From sequence record PX436236.1: a stretch of DNA of 64,000 nt; one strand, 5' to 3'. The translations under genes were made by a program, and so were the position numbers. This DNA comes from a phage. Positions 38,821 to 50,561 of the stretch are shown piece after piece (position 1 is the stretch's first letter; the number at the start of each line of letters is the position of its first letter). The notes beneath the pieces are model-generated. The model ran no database searches, was not told where the DNA came from, and saw only the letters and a list, made by a program, of their open reading frames with translations.

Positions 38821-38895
38821 TGGTATCCCGCCCTGGGATCGAACCAGGACCGCAAACTTAGAAGGATCGTATGCTATCCATTACACCAGCGGGAC
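38821..38895 (-). tRNA. tRNA, probable Arg (anticodon UCU)
   Basis: Cloverleaf on minus strand: acceptor GTCCCGC/GCGGGAT, T-arm CCTGG-TTCGATC-CCAGG, anticodon loop CTTCTAA, encoded CCA. Confidence 0.7.
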
Positions 38896-38900
38896 GTAGT

Positions 38901-38977
38901 TGGTGACCCAGACCAGATTTGAACTGGTAACCTTTCCCTTATGAGGGGACTGCTGCTAACCATTGAGCTACAGGGCC
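38901..38977 (-). tRNA. tRNA with anticodon CAU (Met or Ile2)
   Basis: Acceptor GGCCCTG, D-arm TAGCTCAATGGTTAGC, anticodon loop CTCATAA, T-loop TTCAAAT, encoded CCA. Confidence 0.7.
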
Positions 38978-44114: not shown

Positions 44115-44137
44115 TATAAATATTAATATTATTTATA
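44115..44137. promoter_or_regulatory. Divergent late promoters: TATAAATA on plus (44115-44122, for gp53) and on minus (44130-44137, for gp4)
   Basis: Two TATAAATA boxes in opposite orientation inside a 45-bp spacer flanked by mirror-image GGAGGCACT-ATG initiation regions. Confidence 0.55.
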
Positions 44138-44149
44138 CTCGGAGGCACT

Positions 44150-44752
44150 ATGCTCTTCTCATTTTTCGATCCTATAAATTACGAATCAAAAACAGTCAAG
44201 CCAGATTCCGGCTCATTAACTGATGCCGATGTACTGAGCGTACCGATGACTGATATATTTAGAAACTATAAAGAATATTTTGATAAAGTGGCTAAAAATT
44301 ATACACTTAAAACATATTATATCAGTGGGGCCCCTCGTCCAGAAGAATTAGCCCATCAACTTTATGGTAACGTGCAATTATATTGGGTTTTATTGATGTG
44401 TAATAACGTATACGACCCTTATTACGGCTGGATTACAGGCCAAGAATCTGCGTATCAAGCAGCTATTCAACGTTATGCTACTGCAGGCGGAAACCAAGTC
44501 CTTTATCATGTCAATGAAAAGGGTGAGAAATTCTGGAATCTAGTAAATACTCCGGAAAATCCTTATACTTGGTACGATAAAGGTGATACAGAAAAACGTT
44601 ATCCTCAATATGAAGGTCCTTTGGCTGCAGTAGATATTTACGAGGACGCCATTCGTAAAAATGAATATAAGCGCGAAATAAAGATTATAGACCCTAATGA
44701 CATCGAGTCCTTTGTTTCCGCTTTAATTAGAGAAATGGAAAAAGCGCTATGA
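44150..44752 (+). CDS. 53: Baseplate wedge protein gp53
   Basis: MLFSFFDPINY...MTDIFRNYKEYF...LYWVLLMCNNVYDPYYGWIT; T4 gp53-like. Confidence 0.85.
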   Translation: MLFSFFDPINYESKTVKPDSGSLTDADVLSVPMTDIFRNYKEYFDKVAKNYTLKTYYISGAPRPEELAHQLYGNVQLYWVLLMCNNVYDPYYGWITGQESAYQAAIQRYATAGGNQVLYHVNEKGEKFWNLVNTPENPYTWYDKGDTEKRYPQYEGPLAAVDIYEDAIRKNEYKREIKIIDPNDIESFVSALIREMEKAL

Positions 44753-46536
44753 TTAACATGTCTGATAATGTAAGTTGGTTCGTCGGTGTAGTTGAAGACC
44801 GAATGGACCCACTCCAACAAGGCCGAGTACGCGTGCGCGTATGGGGTATGCATCCCTATGAAAAGGTGCAAGGTCCTGTAAAAGGCCTTCGTACAGAAGA
44901 TTTACCATGGATGTCGGTATTAATGCCTACATCTTCAGCCTCCGTTTCTGGTATCCAAACAGCCATGACTGGTATGGTTCCAGGTACACAGGTTTACGGG
45001 CACTTTCTTGATAAGTGGAAATTAAACGGACTTGTCCTTGGTACATACGGTTCCGCTTCAAGACAAAAGGCTAATCCTAATGAAGGTTTTAGTGACCCGA
45101 CAGGTCAATATCCACTTTATTTAGGTAACGATGCCGCTGCACTAAACCGAGGTGGTGAAGTTGGATATGATGCCACTTCCAACGTAATACAAGATGCAAA
45201 CACCGATGTAGGTATTAATCCTGACGGGTTGGATTTAAGTCAAGTCAAACCAGACGATAATCCTAATTTCACAATAGAAAACATGCTTCATCGTGATGAA
45301 GGGCTTAGACTGAAGGTATATTGGGATACCGAAGGTTATCCTACTATAGGTATAGGCCACCTTATCACACCACAACCTATTAGAGATATGAATCGAATAA
45401 ACAAAATATTATCTAATCAGGTAGGACGAGAAGTTAAAGGTAACCCTGGTGCAATATCAATGGATGAGGCTTCTAAATTATTCCAAGAAGACCTTAAAAA
45501 AGTCCAAAACGATATAGGTCGGCATAGTGTTGTAGGTCCTGTTTACAATAAAGAAAACCGTTCAAGACAAATGGCTCTTGAAAACATGGCTTTCCAAATG
45601 GGATTAGGTGGATTGGCTAAATTCCGTGGAATGCTTAGTGCAATGCTAATAGGCGATTATAAAAAGGCATTTGAGGAAGCTCGTAATTCAGTATGGTTTA
45701 ACCAAACTAAAGGTCGCGCATCAAGGGTGTCAATGATTATCCTCACAGGTAACATGGAATCATATGGTATTATGGCCCCTAAAGAAAGGTCATTTAATGG
45801 CCGTTCGTATAGAATGATTCAAACCTTTGTGGCCCCTACAAATTCAGACCCTGCCGACCCGTGGACTCCAGAAGACACAAGGATTCTTTTTAAAGAACCT
45901 GATTCTAGTTATAAAGGCGAATATCCATATGTCCAAACCATGCAAACTGAAGGCGGGCATATCCAAGAATTCGATAATACCCCAGGGCAAGAACGATACC
46001 GTTTAATCCATCCTACCGGTAGTTATGAAGAAGTTGCTCCTGATGGACGTAAAACTTCTAAGACGGTAGCCGATGGTTATTATATGACCCAAGGCGATTC
46101 AAATACTTATGTTGGCGGTAATAATAAAGTCAACGTTGGCGGCGATGAAACCTATTATAATATGGCAAACGTGCGCCGTCAAACTGATGGGTCTGAAAGC
46201 ATTCATATTCGAGGGAATGAAACCAAAACTGTAGAAGGTAATGGAACTCTGCTTGTTAAAGGAAATGTTAAAATAGTTATTATGGGTACTGCTGATATAA
46301 CTGTTGAACAAGAAGCATATATTACGGTTGAAAAAGATACAACAGTTAATGTCAACCAGAATGCAGATATAAGCGTTAAACAAAAGGCCACAATCAATGC
46401 TCAAAATATGGATGTAAATGTCGAACAAGATTTAAATTTTGCAGCGACGAACATTAATTTAAACGCATCAAATACTGTGCATATGGATGGCGGTTCATTA
46501 GCTAAAGTATCTGGTGGCAACGTACAGGTCGGTTAA
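44749..46536 (+). CDS. 5: Baseplate hub/spike protein gp5 with lysozyme domain and C-terminal beta-helix
   Basis: Internal lysozyme domain (EGLRLKVYWDTEGYPTIGIGHL...) and C-terminal repetitive V-x-G-x beta-helix. Confidence 0.9.
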   Translation: MINMSDNVSWFVGVVEDRMDPLQQGRVRVRVWGMHPYEKVQGPVKGLRTEDLPWMSVLMPTSSASVSGIQTAMTGMVPGTQVYGHFLDKWKLNGLVLGTYGSASRQKANPNEGFSDPTGQYPLYLGNDAAALNRGGEVGYDATSNVIQDANTDVGINPDGLDLSQVKPDDNPNFTIENMLHRDEGLRLKVYWDTEGYPTIGIGHLITPQPIRDMNRINKILSNQVGREVKGNPGAISMDEASKLFQEDLKKVQNDIGRHSVVGPVYNKENRSRQMALENMAFQMGLGGLAKFRGMLSAMLIGDYKKAFEEARNSVWFNQTKGRASRVSMIILTGNMESYGIMAPKERSFNGRSYRMIQTFVAPTNSDPADPWTPEDTRILFKEPDSSYKGEYPYVQTMQTEGGHIQEFDNTPGQERYRLIHPTGSYEEVAPDGRKTSKTVADGYYMTQGDSNTYVGGNNKVNVGGDETYYNMANVRRQTDGSESIHIRGNETKTVEGNGTLLVKGNVKIVIMGTADITVEQEAYITVEKDTTVNVNQNADISVKQKATINAQNMDVNVEQDLNFAATNINLNASNTVHMDGGSLAKVSGGNVQVG

Positions 46537-46537
46537 T

Positions 46538-48601
46538 ATGAATTACTACGATAAAGTTGATGAAGTGGTAGGGACTGTAACAAGTCCCTGTGATGACGCA
46601 GTAGGACCCGGTGAATATCGCCGGGTTAAATGGGAATTATATAACCCAACAGGTGCTTTTATTCAACCTGGGAATGGCGTTGAATGGGATACCGAGATTA
46701 TTCCACTAGCTACACATTTATACACACAAAATCCATTTGGTAATAAGTCCGAAACTTTTCCCGCACCTCCCCCACCGGAAGATGGAACAAGTCAAGGTAT
46801 CTGGTGTGCTAAACTCGGAATATTCTTTATTACGCAATTGGATTTAGAAAATTATGTAGAATCGATTGGTGCAACTCTTTTGCCCGGTAATGATTGGTAC
46901 GGCGCTGATTTATCAAAATCTGTATTGTATAAAACATCTATTGAATATGATATGTATCGCATCGAAAACTGTGGCGGTGTATGGACATCACAAGGCCCCA
47001 GAATGGACCCCAGGACGATGATTGCAGTTACGGCTGATTATCATATGTATGTCAACTTTAACGGCCTTGGTGACTCCCGCAGGGCTTATTTGAAGTACTA
47101 TGAGACAAAACCTTGTACTTATGTTGGACTGGTATTAAATCTAGATGTTGATATGAGTATCCCAGGAACTCCGATTCCGGGACCGGTATCCATCGGGTCT
47201 TTACCGCCAGAAATAACCGGGCGAGCCAGGGCAATAAGCTGTGTTCCTTTTACAGCGGAATTCCCTTACAACGGATTGACCAATGCGATTATGGCTTCAT
47301 GGAATACATCTAGGAATTCATTCAAATTATATTGGGATATGCTCCCTGGATGGCCATCATCTGGTGGAACCGATTGGGAAAAATTCTTCGATTCTGGTTA
47401 TAGTAAGCTATCGGTCGCAATGGAAGAGCTAGGCAACTCGGCTGTTGCTATGTGTCAATATGTTCAGCAAATGGCTTTTCTTGCATTTAAAGATGCCATA
47501 TCACAGGTCTTGAATATTGTTGGCGGTGGGTGGGACTTACTTAAAAGCTTTTTACCCTCGATTACTATTATGGGCATGACTATTGACCTAGAAGACCTCT
47601 GCACTTCAGGTGATGGTGTACAGAAATTAAAAGAAGCATGGAAAAACTTTAATTTAGAAGAAACCATCCAATCGATTTATTCTGCCATTGGGTCTGCATA
47701 CGATTATTCGGTTGAACGCGTCAAGATGTATTCGCGTGACCTTATTGATGCAATTACAGACTTGTATGACTGGGCCTGGTCTCAATTGCTTATGGCTGGT
47801 GTTGCATTATCAAAACTGTGTGTAGACCTCGCTCAAATATGGAGTATGCCTCCTATAGTTCCGAACCCAGTTTGGAGCGTTATTACTGCGGTCAAGGAAA
47901 TGATGAAGCAAGTTAAACCACTGGACATGATAATGAGCGGTAACTTTCCAGGATTCACAGCATCAGATGTTTATCAAATGGTTATGGAAAAGGTAGACCA
48001 GAAAATAGACGAAGCTTATGCAATGATTGAGGCTCTTAAAACCCAGGCACTCAATCTGTGGAATGAGATTAAGCTCAAAAAGCAAGAAGTACAAAAACAA
48101 GCTATTGAATTTAAACAATATCTTTCAGGAATGTACGAAAAAGTTACAGACGAGCTAACTGCTCAGAAGGAAGCCGCATTAGCACAAGCTGAAGCTGCAC
48201 TCGAACTTTTAAAGAATAAATATAATCAGATTAAGAACTCTATTACCGAAAGTCAAACCTCCGTTTCTGATGTATTAGATATGGCTTTAGAAGAATTCAA
48301 AAAACTTCCTATTGTGGCTCAAATGGAAGAACTTCTCGGTATGCTCGGAGCTACTGTAGATGATATCATGGTTATATACGAGAACTCAGTAACTAAAGCA
48401 AAATCTTTATATCACGAATTTACTGATGGTTCCAGGTCAATGAAAGACTTGTGCAAATCAATGTATAACCAAATATCAACATTATCCTTAAGTAAGGTGG
48501 TACAATGGATTAATAAGATGCTGGGAATATTCGGTTTAACGATTGCATTTCCATCCCTTTCCATTTGCATACCTTGTTTAGAATCTCCTACTAGGAATTA
48601 A
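46538..48601 (+). CDS. Large hypothetical protein (687 aa) between gp5 and gp6; beta-rich N-half, helical/coiled-coil C-half, hydrophobic C-terminus
   Basis: Start MNYYDKVDEV 2 nt after the gp5 stop; occupies the slot where T4 has small 5.x genes. Confidence 0.6.
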   Translation: MNYYDKVDEVVGTVTSPCDDAVGPGEYRRVKWELYNPTGAFIQPGNGVEWDTEIIPLATHLYTQNPFGNKSETFPAPPPPEDGTSQGIWCAKLGIFFITQLDLENYVESIGATLLPGNDWYGADLSKSVLYKTSIEYDMYRIENCGGVWTSQGPRMDPRTMIAVTADYHMYVNFNGLGDSRRAYLKYYETKPCTYVGLVLNLDVDMSIPGTPIPGPVSIGSLPPEITGRARAISCVPFTAEFPYNGLTNAIMASWNTSRNSFKLYWDMLPGWPSSGGTDWEKFFDSGYSKLSVAMEELGNSAVAMCQYVQQMAFLAFKDAISQVLNIVGGGWDLLKSFLPSITIMGMTIDLEDLCTSGDGVQKLKEAWKNFNLEETIQSIYSAIGSAYDYSVERVKMYSRDLIDAITDLYDWAWSQLLMAGVALSKLCVDLAQIWSMPPIVPNPVWSVITAVKEMMKQVKPLDMIMSGNFPGFTASDVYQMVMEKVDQKIDEAYAMIEALKTQALNLWNEIKLKKQEVQKQAIEFKQYLSGMYEKVTDELTAQKEAALAQAEAALELLKNKYNQIKNSITESQTSVSDVLDMALEEFKKLPIVAQMEELLGMLGATVDDIMVIYENSVTKAKSLYHEFTDGSRSMKDLCKSMYNQISTLSLSKVVQWINKMLGIFGLTIAFPSLSICIPCLESPTRN

Positions 48602-48602
48602 A

Positions 48603-50561
48603 ATGGCTACTCCTACGAATTACCAATTAACAAGAACCGTTAACGCTATCCCAAAAGTATTTGTGGGAGCTACGTTTGAAGAGATTAAAAAGAATATTAT
48701 CGATTGGCTTTCTAGCCAGGACGAATTTAAGGATTACGATTTCGTTGGTTCGCGAATGAATATCCTGATTGACATGTTAGCTTACAACACCCTGTATATG
48801 CAGCAGTTTGCTAATACCGCGGTATATGAATCTTTCATCGGTACTGCTAACTTGCGTTCCTCCGTCGTCCAGGCTGCACAGGATAACGGCTATTTGCCAA
48901 GTTCTAAATCAGCAGCCAAAACAAGTATCATGTTGACCTGTACCCAAGCCCTGAATGAAAAGAATATTCGTATCCCACGTGGTACTAAATTCTTGGCCTA
49001 TGCCCGTGATACTTCAGCAGACCCGTATGCTTTTGTTACCACGGAAAACGTTATTGCCGTACGTGATGTTAATAACCAATATCTTCCTATCGTATCTTTA
49101 GCACAAGGTCGTATTATCCGTACTGAACTTAAGTATGACCCTAAAACTCCTATTCTTATTCGTGACCCGGATATTGATAGACAGGAAGTTAAACTTTATG
49201 TCGATGGCGCAGAATGGACTAACTGGACTAATAAATCCATGGTTCATGCTGGTAGTACATCAACAATTTACTATATGCGTGAAACCGTAGATGGTAATAC
49301 TGAATTCTTCTTTGGTGAAGGTGTTGCTGAAAAATCAGTTGCAGGTGGGGTATTAGAAGCTAATTATATTGGTGGTTTAAAACCTGTTAAAGATGCTACC
49401 ATTGTTATAGAATACCTTCGTACAGATGGTGAAGTTGCTAACGGGGCAGTGGACTTTAGTTATGCGGATTCTTTGGCATATATTACGGTTGAAAAAATTA
49501 CAGAAAACTACGATGAAAACCCGGATTATGTAGGTGCTGACGGTGGTGGTGACCCTGAAGATATTGAACGTATTCGTGAACTTGCTGTAGTTAAACGTGA
49601 AGCCCAGATGCGTGCTGTAACCGGTACAGATTATGATACATTCGTTTCGGAGCGATTTGGTTCTATTGTACAAGCAGTACAAACCTTTACAGACCCAAAT
49701 AAACCAGGTTATGCCTTTGTTACCATTAAACCTAAATCAGGATTGTATTTGACGGCAGTACAACGCGAAGATATCCAAAATTATCTTTCAGAATTTAACT
49801 TGGCACCTATTACCCCTTCGGTTATTTCTCCTGACTACTTGTTCTTGAAGCATAAAATTAAGGTTTCATATGCACTGAACAAATTACAGGAATCCGAACA
49901 ATGGTTAACGGCTCAAATCCTTTCCCAAATAGACCGTTATTATATTAACGAAGTTGAAATATTCAACCACGGATTTGCCAAGTCTAAAATGCTGACTTAT
50001 ATTGATAATGCAGACCACAGTATCCTTGGCTCTTCGGCTACGGTAACAATGGTTCGCGAGGTATTAAACTTCTTCAAAACACCTGAAGCAGGTATTAAAT
50101 ACTATAATCAATACACCAACCGTTCTGTAACTTCTAGTGAATTTGAGTTCGTCCCAACAAACGTATCTGATGTTGTTAAATCTTACAACGTACGTATTGT
50201 TGCCACAGATAAAGACGAACGAGGCGATGGTAAAATGGTTATAGGTCCTTTCCGACCTGGCGATGTAATTGAAAACCAATACATCCAACCTTACACCGGA
50301 GATGACTTCGATAAAATGGCAGCGCCTGCAGACCAATCGGTCTACTATGTTATTGGCGAAATTGATTATTACTCGGACTTTATTTTCTGGGATATCGCCG
50401 CAATAGGCCTTACTTCCGACCGTTTTGAAGTCCAGTCTATTGAACTTTATGCAGGGCCAGACCAAGACAACATCTTTACCAAAGACGGTTCTTTAATCGT
50501 ATTTGAAGATGACCTTCGTCCTCAGTACACAACTATAGAGTTGGAACCAATTACAATATAA
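48603..50561 (+). CDS. 6: Baseplate wedge protein gp6
   Basis: 652 aa; position and length as T4 gp6. Confidence 0.8.
   Translation: MATPTNYQLTRTVNAIPKVFVGATFEEIKKNIIDWLSSQDEFKDYDFVGSRMNILIDMLAYNTLYMQQFANTAVYESFIGTANLRSSVVQAAQDNGYLPSSKSAAKTSIMLTCTQALNEKNIRIPRGTKFLAYARDTSADPYAFVTTENVIAVRDVNNQYLPIVSLAQGRIIRTELKYDPKTPILIRDPDIDRQEVKLYVDGAEWTNWTNKSMVHAGSTSTIYYMRETVDGNTEFFFGEGVAEKSVAGGVLEANYIGGLKPVKDATIVIEYLRTDGEVANGAVDFSYADSLAYITVEKITENYDENPDYVGADGGGDPEDIERIRELAVVKREAQMRAVTGTDYDTFVSERFGSIVQAVQTFTDPNKPGYAFVTIKPKSGLYLTAVQREDIQNYLSEFNLAPITPSVISPDYLFLKHKIKVSYALNKLQESEQWLTAQILSQIDRYYINEVEIFNHGFAKSKMLTYIDNADHSILGSSATVTMVREVLNFFKTPEAGIKYYNQYTNRSVTSSEFEFVPTNVSDVVKSYNVRIVATDKDERGDGKMVIGPFRPGDVIENQYIQPYTGDDFDKMAAPADQSVYYVIGEIDYYSDFIFWDIAAIGLTSDRFEVQSIELYAGPDQDNIFTKDGSLIVFEDDLRPQYTTIELEPITI

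What the first reader, a model, noticed from the sequence alone, without database searches (positions are those of the whole stretch)
46538..48601. Unexpected 687-aa ORF between baseplate genes 5 and 6
In T4 the gp5-gp6 interval holds only small 5.x genes, including the roughly 100-aa gp5.4 spike-tip protein. Here a single 687-aa ORF starts 2 nt after the gp5 stop and ends 2 nt before the gp6 start, and no separate PAAR-sized ORF is present. The N-terminal half is Gly/Pro-rich and probably beta-structured; the C-terminal half is strongly helical with coiled-coil character and ends in a hydrophobic Cys-containing tail (...GLTIAFPSLSICIPCLESPTRN). Its placement in the baseplate/spike module suggests a structural or ejected protein, possibly a tip protein with an effector-like extension.
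Basis: partly seen in the sequence, partly recalled or inferred. Interest (0 to 1): 0.6.

Follow-up and report, generated by a model that had tools for sequence, protein, structure and literature searches.

The report
Large non-PAAR spike-tip protein gene
This 687-residue gene in a T4-like coliphage (Bp7/WG01) is a relative of the recently described RB43 "orf205w" protein, which most likely caps the tail's membrane-piercing spike in place of the small gp5.4 tip. It is a real and interesting gene, but a member of an already reported kind.

Summary
The ORF is real: window 46538-48601 (+), 687 aa, packed between gene 5 and gene 6 of Escherichia phage Bp7/WG01 (Dhakavirus).

It is a full-length homolog (43% identity) of RB43/RB16 orf205w. 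A 2025 preprint and a 2026 paper propose that protein as a large alternative spike tip replacing T4 gp5.1-gp5.4.

Evidence added here:
- The complete WG01 genome has no gp5.4/PAAR or gp5.1 homolog.
- Its congener JS98 carries 5.1 and 5.4 in the same slot.
- The swapped DNA module is the last ~76 codons of gene 5 (the beta-helix tip) plus this ORF. The same swap recurs independently in a Tequatrovirus (SG1).
- In all 18 loci with the large ORF, gp5 (where its end is on the contig) ends in a "..GG(T/N)V(Q/S/V)VG" strand. All intact gp5 at gp5.4 loci end "..DGSRIDIG".
- AlphaFold2 gives a confident model (pLDDT 87): a new alpha/beta N-domain plus a helical core with a long hairpin.

Virion location and function remain inferred; I found no virion proteomics for the family.

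Verdict: new member of a known, recently described kind. Moderate interest.

The parts
44115..44122 (+). T4-type late promoter motif TATAAATA upstream of gene 53. It is the only such motif on the + strand between 40000 and 54000, so the ORF is presumably co-transcribed with genes 53-5-6-7 (inference).
   Evidence: Exact motif scan. A matching motif on the - strand at 44130 faces gene 4.
44749..46308 (+). Gene 5 body (codons 1-520: OB domain, lysozyme, proximal beta-helix). It belongs to the Dhakavirus backbone.
   Evidence: Pfam Gp5_OB 3e-61, Phage_lysozyme, Gp5_trimer_C. Residues 1-519 are 95.6% identical to JS98 gp5 and 65.9% to SG1. DNA homology to JS98 (92.8%) runs up to 46308.
46309..46536 (+). 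Distal beta-helix tip of gp5 (codons 521-595, ending ...SLAKVSGGNVQVG). It is part of the exchanged module and is the presumed docking platform for the large tip protein.
   Evidence: Residues 520-595 are 21.1% identical to JS98 but 90.8% to SG1. The closing motif is shared by the 16 large-ORF loci compared and by 2 distant ones, and differs from the ...GQYTIDGSRIDIG of every intact gp5 at gp5.4 loci.
46538..48601 (+). The 687-aa ORF (76.7 kDa, pI 4.7): an orf205w-type large putative spike-tip protein (PHROG 5296).
   Evidence: 100% identical to Bp7/WG01, annotated hypothetical protein; 43% identity to RB43/RB16 over residues 1-682; phrog_5296, 1195 bits, full length. AF2 pLDDT 87, pTM 0.78.
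46538..47407 (+). N-terminal alpha/beta region (aa 1-290), Gly/Pro-rich. The compact domain is aa 1-200. Cys18 and Cys193 are invariant; Cys235 and Pro237 are nearly invariant.
47408..48532 (+). Helical region (aa 291-665). Three long core helices (294-328, 398-435, 631-664) correspond to the 'triple coiled-coil core' modelled for the Klebsiella phage Helios homolog. Conserved Gly/Pro loops sit at 326-333, 437-446 and 467-475.
   Evidence: DSSP on the AF2 model. Conservation by block. Helios gp203 core Phe287-Ile327, Glu398-Trp440, Lys631-Ile670 (PMC13611949).
47960..48262 (+). Long antiparallel helical hairpin (aa 475-575: helices 475-529 and 538-575). The helices are variable but the turn region is conserved (QYLxGMWExVTDE, aa 527-541). 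It is the presumed distal end of the tip.
48518..48598 (+). Hydrophobic C-terminal tail (aa 661-687, MLGIFGLTIAFPSLSICIPCLESPTRN), predicted as a beta-strand at 673-682. Cys677 and Pro679 are nearly invariant.
   Evidence: Hydropathy maximum 1.87. DSSP. Family alignment of the tail.
48592..48605 (+). 3' junction of the exchanged module: TAGGAATTAAAATG. It holds the stop of the ORF plus the ribosome-binding site and start of gene 6. It is identical in JS98 and differs at one base in SG1.
   Evidence: Homology to JS98 resumes at 48592. Sequence comparison.

Best explanation
The ORF encodes the large, non-PAAR spike-tip protein of this phage, a member of the RB43 orf205w / Helios gp203 family.

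Shown:
- It is a conserved late-module gene that occupies exactly the slot of T4 genes 5.1-5.4.
- It occurs only in phages that lack gp5.4.
- It is inherited as one recombination module with the last ~76 residues of gp5, which include the terminal beta-strand that binds the tip protein in T4.

Inferred:
- One copy sits on the blunt trimeric end of the gp5 beta-helix, through the end of its three-helix core and the conserved Gly/Pro loops and C-terminal hydrophobic strand.
- The ~100-residue helical hairpin points away from the baseplate and forms a long conical tip.
- On sheath contraction it is the first part of the virion to meet the outer membrane, and it is carried with gp5 into the periplasm.
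- There it does the job gp5.4 does in T4: sharpening and stabilising the spike, and making penetration and DNA delivery efficient on particular envelope types.
- The novel N-terminal domain and the conserved hairpin loop may add contacts to envelope components.
For: Homology and synteny:
- Full-length homology to RB43/RB16 orf205w (43% identity over aa 1-682) and a PHROG 5296 match of 1195 bits.
- For RB43, cryo-EM shows a larger density at the gp5 tip, and the authors assign it tentatively to orf205w (PMC12407873).
- An AF3 model of the Helios homolog docks it on the last beta-strand of gp5 (PMC13611949).
- Gene order is 53-5-ORF-6-7 in 15 of the 16 loci compared; in the sixteenth no gene 6 was found within the fetched stretch. 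Two distant members also sit directly after a gp5 gene.

Mutual exclusivity with gp5.4:
- No gp5.4/PAAR or gp5.1 homolog in the whole WG01 genome: tblastn best E 0.21 and 0.98.
- A 32-sequence PAAR profile gives best E 3.5, against 5e-52 for the JS98 control.
- 0 of 18 large-ORF loci have a PAAR ORF, 37 of 37 gp5.4 loci do, and 0 of 37 carry the large ORF.

The exchanged module:
- JS98, of the same genus, has 5.1 + 5.4 in the slot.
- Bp7-JS98 DNA homology (92.8%) breaks at 46308 inside gene 5 and resumes at 48592.
- gp5 residues 1-519 are 95.6% identical to JS98, but residues 520-595 are 21.1% to JS98 and 90.8% to SG1.
- The same breakpoints recur in SG1 against a T4-like contig with 96.6%-identical flanks.
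- The gp5 terminal strand motif tracks the tip type without exception among intact gp5 genes.
- Buth et al. 2015 state that the last beta-strand of gp5 is responsible for binding gp5.4 (PMC4576200).

Other points:
- Confident single-chain model with three long core helices and a long hairpin.
- A late promoter lies only upstream of gene 53.
- gp29, gp27, gp28, gp26, gp25, gp48 and gp54 are all encoded separately in WG01, so the ORF does not substitute for another hub protein.
Against: - There is no direct evidence that this protein, or any homolog, is in the virion. I found no virion mass-spectrometry report covering the family.
- The RB43 map is 17.7 A and its authors write 'possibly encoded by orf205w'. 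They could not produce a complex with the gp5 beta-helix fragment.
- I could not model the gp5-ORF complex or inspect coordinates. Which surface docks on gp5, and the stoichiometry, are inferred.
- No internal three-fold sequence repeat is detectable (hhalign probability below 2%).
- Co-inheritance with the gp5 tip shows functional or physical linkage, but it would also fit a gp5-specific assembly factor.
Confidence: 0.75

Rival explanations
1. The protein is a non-virion assembly factor or chaperone specific for the variant gp5 beta-helix tip. It would fold or cap the tip during hub assembly and then leave. The extra density at the RB43 spike tip would belong to something else.
For: - It is co-inherited with the gp5 tip, which a dedicated chaperone would also show.
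- There is no virion proteomics for the family.
- T4 morphogenesis uses several non-structural catalysts encoded in structural modules, such as gp51 and gp57A (annotated in WG01).
Against: - These phages have no PAAR or other candidate to account for the larger RB43 tip density.
- 77 kDa with a rigid, elongated, highly conserved architecture and a conserved distal loop is unlike known phage chaperones.
- The RB43 authors report that orf205w fits the density.
Confidence: 0.1
2. The protein is an ejected or membrane-active protein carried elsewhere in the tail, for example in the tube lumen or hub like a tape measure. It would form or prime the channel through the inner membrane using its long amphipathic helices and hydrophobic C-terminus.
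For: - Weak profile similarity to tape-measure PHROGs (phrog_305 E 4e-4, phrog_8462 E 5.5e-3). Some GenBank records call homologs 'tail length tape measure' or 'baseplate hub structural protein'.
- The C-terminal 19-residue hydropathy of 1.87 is in the transmembrane range.
Against: - The tape-measure hits have no stretch that passes on its own, and they cover only the coiled-coil part.
- WG01 encodes a normal gp29 tape measure/hub protein separately (ORF195).
- This reading does not explain the strict linkage to the last strand of gp5, or the mutual exclusion with gp5.4.
Confidence: 0.08
3. The ORF is an annotation or fusion artefact, or a non-functional remnant.
For: One homolog (phage phT4A) appears truncated to 485 aa in GenBank and BFVD.
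Against: - The phT4A truncation is a run of 100 N in the assembly.
- The ORF is intact, at 664-764 aa, in every full-length cluster found, and 214 of 216 phage records match at least 80% of it.
- Invariant residues are spread along its whole length.
- It folds confidently.
Confidence: 0.01

Closest known systems
RB43 orf205w / RB16p191 / Klebsiella phage Helios gp203 (PHROG 5296): the putative large spike-tip protein of Pseudotevenvirus, Slopekvirus and related T4-like phages
   Same: - Full-length homolog: 43% identity over aa 1-682, with the same ~690-aa length.
- Same alpha/beta N-terminus followed by a helical remainder.
- Same position after gene 5, in genomes that lack 5.1 and 5.4.
- Same gp5 terminal motif ..GG(T/N)VQVG.
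   Different: - Here the gene sits in a Tevenvirinae (Dhakavirus) backbone whose sister species JS98 carries 5.1/5.4. It arrived by exchange of a module that includes the gp5 tip.
- There is no experimental work on the Bp7/WG01 protein, which is annotated only as a hypothetical protein.
T4 gp5.4 (PAAR-repeat spike tip; PDB 4KU0)
   Same: [quoted passage not shown]
- Mutually exclusive distribution, which implies the same role as spike cap (PMC12407873).
   Different: - 97 aa against 687 aa.
- No sequence or profile similarity (hhalign probability 0.0%; no Pfam PAAR hit).
- Mostly helical rather than a beta-pyramid.
- It binds a different gp5 terminal sequence.
T4 gp5.1 (function unknown; proposed by PMC13611949 to sit beside gp5.4)
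   Same: It is displaced together with gp5.4 by the large ORF.
   Different: No detectable homology: tblastn best E 0.98 and hhalign probability 0.2%.
Phage P1 UpfB alpha-helical tripod attached to the PAAR protein UpfC (as described in PMC13611949, citing a P1 baseplate reconstruction)
   Same: An alpha-helical extension beyond the spike, with a loop at its distal end.
   Different: - P1 keeps a PAAR protein and adds three copies of a separate helical protein. Here a single chain replaces the PAAR altogether.
T6SS PAAR proteins with C-terminal effector or Rhs extensions
   Same: The concept of a spike cap that carries extra mass into the target envelope.
   Different: - Those proteins keep a canonical PAAR domain as the adaptor, which this protein lacks.
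- No toxin or enzymatic domain is detectable here.

Membership tests
orf205w-type large spike-tip protein (PHROG 5296) | Full-length sequence homology to RB43 orf205w / RB16p191 | tested here: met
   tblastn gives 43% identity over aa 1-682, E about 1e-172 to 1e-177, to RB43 and RB16. phrog_5296 scores 1195 bits over profile positions 1-684 of 685.
orf205w-type large spike-tip protein (PHROG 5296) | The gene lies immediately downstream of gene 5 and upstream of gene 6, in place of genes 5.1-5.4 | tested here: met
   Window coordinates. Order 53-5-ORF-6-7 in 15 of 16 loci, with gene 6 not found within the fetched stretch in the sixteenth. Two distant members lie directly after gp5. JS98 has 5.1/5.4 in the slot.
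orf205w-type large spike-tip protein (PHROG 5296) | The genome lacks a gp5.4/PAAR gene | tested here: met
   Whole WG01 genome plus the window: tblastn best E 0.21. PAAR profile best E 3.5, against 5e-52 for the positive control.
orf205w-type large spike-tip protein (PHROG 5296) | Partner gp5 whose beta-helix runs to the C-terminus and carries the variant terminal strand | tested here: met
   gp5 ends ...KVSGGNVQVG, as in RB16, SG1, Pm5461 and the IMG/VR loci. The tip segment is 90.8% identical to SG1.
orf205w-type large spike-tip protein (PHROG 5296) | Architecture: an alpha/beta N-terminal region followed by an all-helical remainder with a three-helix core | tested here: met
   AF2 pLDDT 87. 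Helices 294-328, 398-435 and 631-664, plus a hairpin at 475-575. This matches the published descriptions.
orf205w-type large spike-tip protein (PHROG 5296) | Physically located at the distal end of the gp5 trimer in the virion | not testable with these tools
   Only low-resolution cryo-EM of RB43 with a tentative assignment exists. I found no proteomics for the family.
PAAR-repeat / gp5.4 spike tip (Pfam PF05488) | PAAR-domain sequence signature | tested here: not met
   No Pfam PAAR hit at E up to 0.1. hhalign against a 32-sequence gp5.4/PAAR alignment gives probability 0.0%. The ORF is not hit by the PAAR HMM.
PAAR-repeat / gp5.4 spike tip (Pfam PF05488) | Small conical beta-structure fold | tested here: not met
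PAAR-repeat / gp5.4 spike tip (Pfam PF05488) | Binds the blunt end of a gp5/VgrG beta-helix as a single copy | not testable with these tools
   Inferred from co-inheritance with the gp5 tip and from published AF3 and cryo-EM work on homologs.
Tail tape measure protein (as some homologs are annotated) | Significant similarity to tape-measure families, and being the genome's tail-length determinant | tested here: not met
   phrog_305 at E 4e-4 has no stretch that passes on its own, and phrog_8462 is only E 5.5e-3; both cover only the coiled-coil part. [quoted passage not shown]
T4 gp5.1 | Sequence or profile homology | tested here: not met
   tblastn best E 0.98. hhalign probability 0.2% against a 34-sequence gp5.1 alignment.

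The most novel reading that the evidence does not exclude
The large tip may be more than a passive point. It could be a delivered, envelope-interacting device. Its conserved hairpin loop, novel N-terminal domain (with four conserved cysteines) and hydrophobic C-terminus would engage specific outer-membrane/LPS, periplasmic or inner-membrane components. The gp5-tip + tip-protein cassette would then be a second host-range or penetration-specificity determinant, independent of the tail fibres, which T4-like phages trade by recombination. At least two independent transfers into PAAR-type backbones are seen here.
Probability: 0.2. Interest if true: 0.7.

Novelty: new member of a known kind. Interest (0 to 1): 0.4.

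Why it matters
How contractile tails cross the envelope after the outer membrane is punctured remains poorly understood, and so does what the spike tip contributes. [quoted passage not shown]

This family is the only known non-PAAR cap on a gp5-type spike, and it is seven times larger than gp5.4.

The practical point that I did not find in the papers read is that nature has already built near-isogenic pairs differing almost only in the cassette 'last 76 residues of gp5 + tip protein':
- Bp7/WG01 against JS98, with ~93% identical flanks.
- SG1 against a T4-like relative, with ~96% identical flanks.

These pairs define the module boundaries needed to engineer swaps, and they point to the last beta-strand of gp5 as the specificity determinant. 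They make the functional question directly testable: penetration efficiency, LPS or PpiD dependence, and host range.

Tried and rejected
- **Fusion or divergent descendant of gp5.1 + gp5.4.** Rejected at the sequence-profile level.
- **Tape measure or hub protein.** Rejected: only coiled-coil noise, and gp29 and the other hub genes are present separately.
- **Defence, anti-defence or enzymatic domain.** Nothing significant in Pfam, NCBIfam or PADLOC.
- **Solved-structure relatives by sequence.** None.
- **Fold relatives.** In the PDB only generic alpha-hairpins. In BFVD only the family itself.
- **Wider family or domain shuffling.** A profile search of 1.84 billion representative proteins found only 8 full-length clusters plus fragments.
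- **Internal three-fold repeat** of 'core helix + strand' units, which would explain docking of a monomer on a trimer. Not detectable by hhalign (probability below 2%). I could not examine coordinates, so this remains only a lead.
- **A natural N-terminal truncation in phage phT4A** as evidence that the N-domain is dispensable. Rejected: it is a 100-N assembly gap.
- **Published virion proteomics for a family member.** The papers found concern gp5.4-type phages (Jiaodavirus, Karamvirus) or contain no mass spectrometry.
Full report
**Identity of the window and the ORF.** The window is 100% identical over the ORF to Escherichia phages Bp7 and WG01 (Dhakavirus, Tevenvirinae), and 99.2-99.9% identical to seven more isolates including Shigella phage SP18. 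The ORF listing gives an open frame 46514-48601 (+). The ATG at 46538 yields 687 aa, and every homolog starts MNY/MDY at that point. The gp5 stop ends at 46536 and gene 6 starts at 48603. Pfam confirms the neighbours as gp53, gp5 (OB, lysozyme, C-terminal beta-helix) and gp6. In WG01 the gene is ORF156, 'hypothetical protein'.

**The protein.**
- It is 76.7 kDa and acidic (pI 4.7). Residues 1-290 are rich in Gly (9.7%) and Pro (8.6%).
- The last 27 residues contain the most hydrophobic stretch of the protein.
- Pfam, NCBIfam, PADLOC and PDB sequence searches give nothing above coiled-coil noise.
- PHROGs places it full-length in phrog_5296, 'unknown function'.
- With a 61-sequence alignment, AlphaFold2 gives a confident model: mean pLDDT 87, pTM 0.78.
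- The model has a mixed alpha/beta N-terminal region, long helices at 294-328, 398-435 and 631-664, a ~100-residue antiparallel hairpin (475-529 and 538-575), and a C-terminal strand at 673-682.
- Conservation is highest in Gly/Pro-rich loops that follow the core helices (326-333, 437-446, 467-475), in the turn of the hairpin (QYLxGMWExVTDE) and in the C-terminal FPxxSxC(V/I)P motif. The hairpin helices themselves vary.

**Fold comparisons.**
- In BFVD only four members of the same family are significant.
- A profile search of 1.84 billion representative proteins finds only eight full-length clusters plus fragments.
- The fold and the family are thus specific to a subset of T4-like phages.

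**What is already known.**
- tblastn finds full-length homologs in 216 phage records. These include Pseudotevenvirus RB16/RB43/Lw1, Slopekvirus KP27/Miro/Matisse, Bragavirus Pm5461, Cronobacter S13, Pantoea Phynn and Salmonella SG1/KM16.
- Mattenberger et al. (bioRxiv 2025, PMC12407873) report that RB43, RB16 and Lw1 lack gene 5.4, and that the 5.1-5.4 locus is occupied by orf205w (~690 aa; residues 1-220 alpha/beta, the rest helical).
- Their 17.7 A reconstruction of the RB43 baseplate shows a larger object at the spike tip, 'possibly' orf205w. A complex with the gp5 beta-helix fragment could not be produced, and their AlphaFold model was of low confidence.
- A 2026 Viruses paper (PMC13611949) models the Klebsiella phage Helios homolog gp203 on the gp5 trimer with AF3. 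It describes a three-helix core (287-327, 398-440, 631-670) and a loop at the distal tip, and speculates that gp203 is an analogue of gp5.1 + gp5.4.
- The helices in my model coincide with that core. The window's ORF is therefore a new member of a recently described but still experimentally unproven kind.

**New evidence 1: no ordinary tip protein in this phage.**
- JS98 gp5.4 and gp5.1 find nothing in the complete WG01 genome or the window (best E 0.21 and 0.98). The same gp5.4 query finds homologs in 1,437 phage records, down to 29% identity.
- I built a profile from 32 gp5.4/PAAR sequences, including Acinetobacter, Vibrio, Campylobacter, Aeromonas, Dickeya and Salicola phages. It scores the JS98 control at 5e-52, but nothing better than E 3.5 among all six-frame ORFs of at least 40 aa in WG01.
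- Across fetched loci, 0 of 18 large-ORF loci contain a PAAR ORF, 37 of 37 gp5.4 loci do, and 0 of 37 contain the large ORF.
- The large protein is not a diverged 5.1 or 5.4 (hhalign probabilities 0.2% and 0.0%).

**New evidence 2: the ORF travels with the tip of gp5.**
- JS98, of the same genus, has 5.1 (179 aa) and 5.4 (97 aa) in the slot.
- Bp7 and JS98 DNA are 92.8% identical up to window position 46308, inside gene 5 at codon 520. Homology resumes at 48592, 11 nt before gene 6.
- gp5 residues 1-519 are 95.6% identical to JS98 and 65.9% to SG1. Residues 520-595 are 21.1% identical to JS98 and 90.8% to SG1.
- The 3' junction is the shared gene 6 translation-initiation sequence TAGGAATTAAAATG.
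- A second chimera has the same architecture. Salmonella phage SG1, classified in Tequatrovirus, is 95-97% identical to a T4-like contig on both sides. The two diverge from gp5 codon ~515 to 10 nt before gene 6.
- In the 16 large-ORF loci compared, gp5 ends ..K(I/V)(S/T)G(G/A)(N/T)VQVG. Two distant family members (31% identity and lower) follow gp5 genes ending ..TGGTVSVG and ..TGGTVVVG. Every intact gp5 at a gp5.4 locus ends ..GQYT(I/V)DGSR(I/V)D(I/V/L/F)G; one locus has a disrupted gene 5.
- Buth et al. 2015 state that the last beta-strand of gp5 is what binds gp5.4 (PMC4576200). The simplest reading is that the variant last strand is the cognate docking site of the large protein.

**Context.**
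- The only T4-type late promoter motif on the + strand between 40000 and 54000 lies upstream of gene 53 (44115). The ORF is separated by one nucleotide from each neighbour, so co-expression with the baseplate genes is expected (inference).
- WG01 encodes gp25, 26, 27, 28, 29, 48, 51 and 54 separately, so the ORF does not replace another hub component.

**Mechanism (shown versus inferred).**
- Shown: position, conservation, mutual exclusion with gp5.4, modular co-inheritance with the gp5 tip, the predicted architecture, and non-homology to PAAR.
- Taken from the literature on homologs: extra density at the RB43 spike tip, and an AF3 docking model.
- Inferred: a single copy caps the gp5 trimer via the end of its three-helix core. 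The hairpin forms the distal point. The protein enters the periplasm with gp5 on contraction and fulfils the gp5.4 role, possibly with added envelope contacts.
- I put this at about 0.75.
- Rivals: a gp5-tip-specific assembly factor that is not in the virion (0.10); an ejected or channel-forming protein located elsewhere in the tail (0.08); an artefact (0.01).

**Verdict.** The specific PAAR-plus-extension idea is not supported. The finding is a new member of a known, recently described kind. Its residual value lies in the natural module swaps, which define the exchange unit and give near-isogenic phage pairs for experiments.

Noticed in passing
L066 3400-3500 (Escherichia phage phT4A, NC_055712.1 about 101337-101437): The phT4A homolog is annotated as a 485-aa protein and appears as such in UniProt/BFVD (A0A193GZA2). 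The missing N-terminus is a run of 100 N in the assembly, and the first 14 codons are still present upstream. The truncated entry is an artefact.
   Followed up: yes
L008 (Salmonella phage SG1, NC_054936.1 21946-23982) against L030: SG1 is classified in Tequatrovirus (T4's own genus) yet carries the large tip ORF. Its flanks are 95-97% identical to a gp5.4-type T4-like contig, with breakpoints at gp5 codon ~515 and 10 nt before gene 6. This is a second module swap with the same boundaries as in Bp7.
   Followed up: yes
L059 219-1388 (JGI metagenome contig Ga0620835_007198): A distant family member (743 aa) follows a 389-aa gp5-like protein. That protein has the OB domain and a beta-helix but apparently no lysozyme domain, and it still ends ...TGGTVVVG.
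   Followed up: partly
L058 2542-2967 (ENA metagenome scaffold): In another distant lineage a gp25-like gene (GPW_gp25) lies between the large tip ORF and gene 6. In Bp7/T4, gene 25 is located elsewhere.
   Followed up: no
L003 8836-9513 (RB16, HM134276.1 108319-108996): A Mob-like HNH homing endonuclease gene is inserted between the large tip ORF and gene 6 in RB16. A GIY-YIG Seg-like endonuclease lies between genes 2 and 4. Homing endonucleases near the module could promote its exchange.
   Followed up: no
Phage records listed: Annotation is inconsistent. Homologs of the large ORF are called 'tail length tape measure' (Roth23, Roth26) or 'baseplate hub structural protein' (EBPL). Many gp5.4 orthologs are annotated 'phospholipase'.
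   Followed up: partly
window 44115-44137: Back-to-back T4 late-promoter motifs lie in the 45-nt gap between gene 4 (- strand) and gene 53 (+ strand): TATAAATA at 44115 on the + strand and its complement at 44130. This looks like a divergent late promoter pair.
   Followed up: no
window 38821-38977 (-): Two adjacent tRNA genes, tRNA-Arg(TCT) and tRNA-Met(CAT), sit in the region that corresponds to the T4 tRNA cluster.
   Followed up: no
window 46538-48601, residues Cys18, Cys193, Cys235, Cys677: Four cysteines are invariant or nearly so across the family. Two of them lie in similar S-x-C-(V/I)-P motifs (233-237 and 674-679) in predicted strands. This could be a metal site or disulfides, as in other spike tips, but I could not check distances without coordinates.
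   Followed up: no
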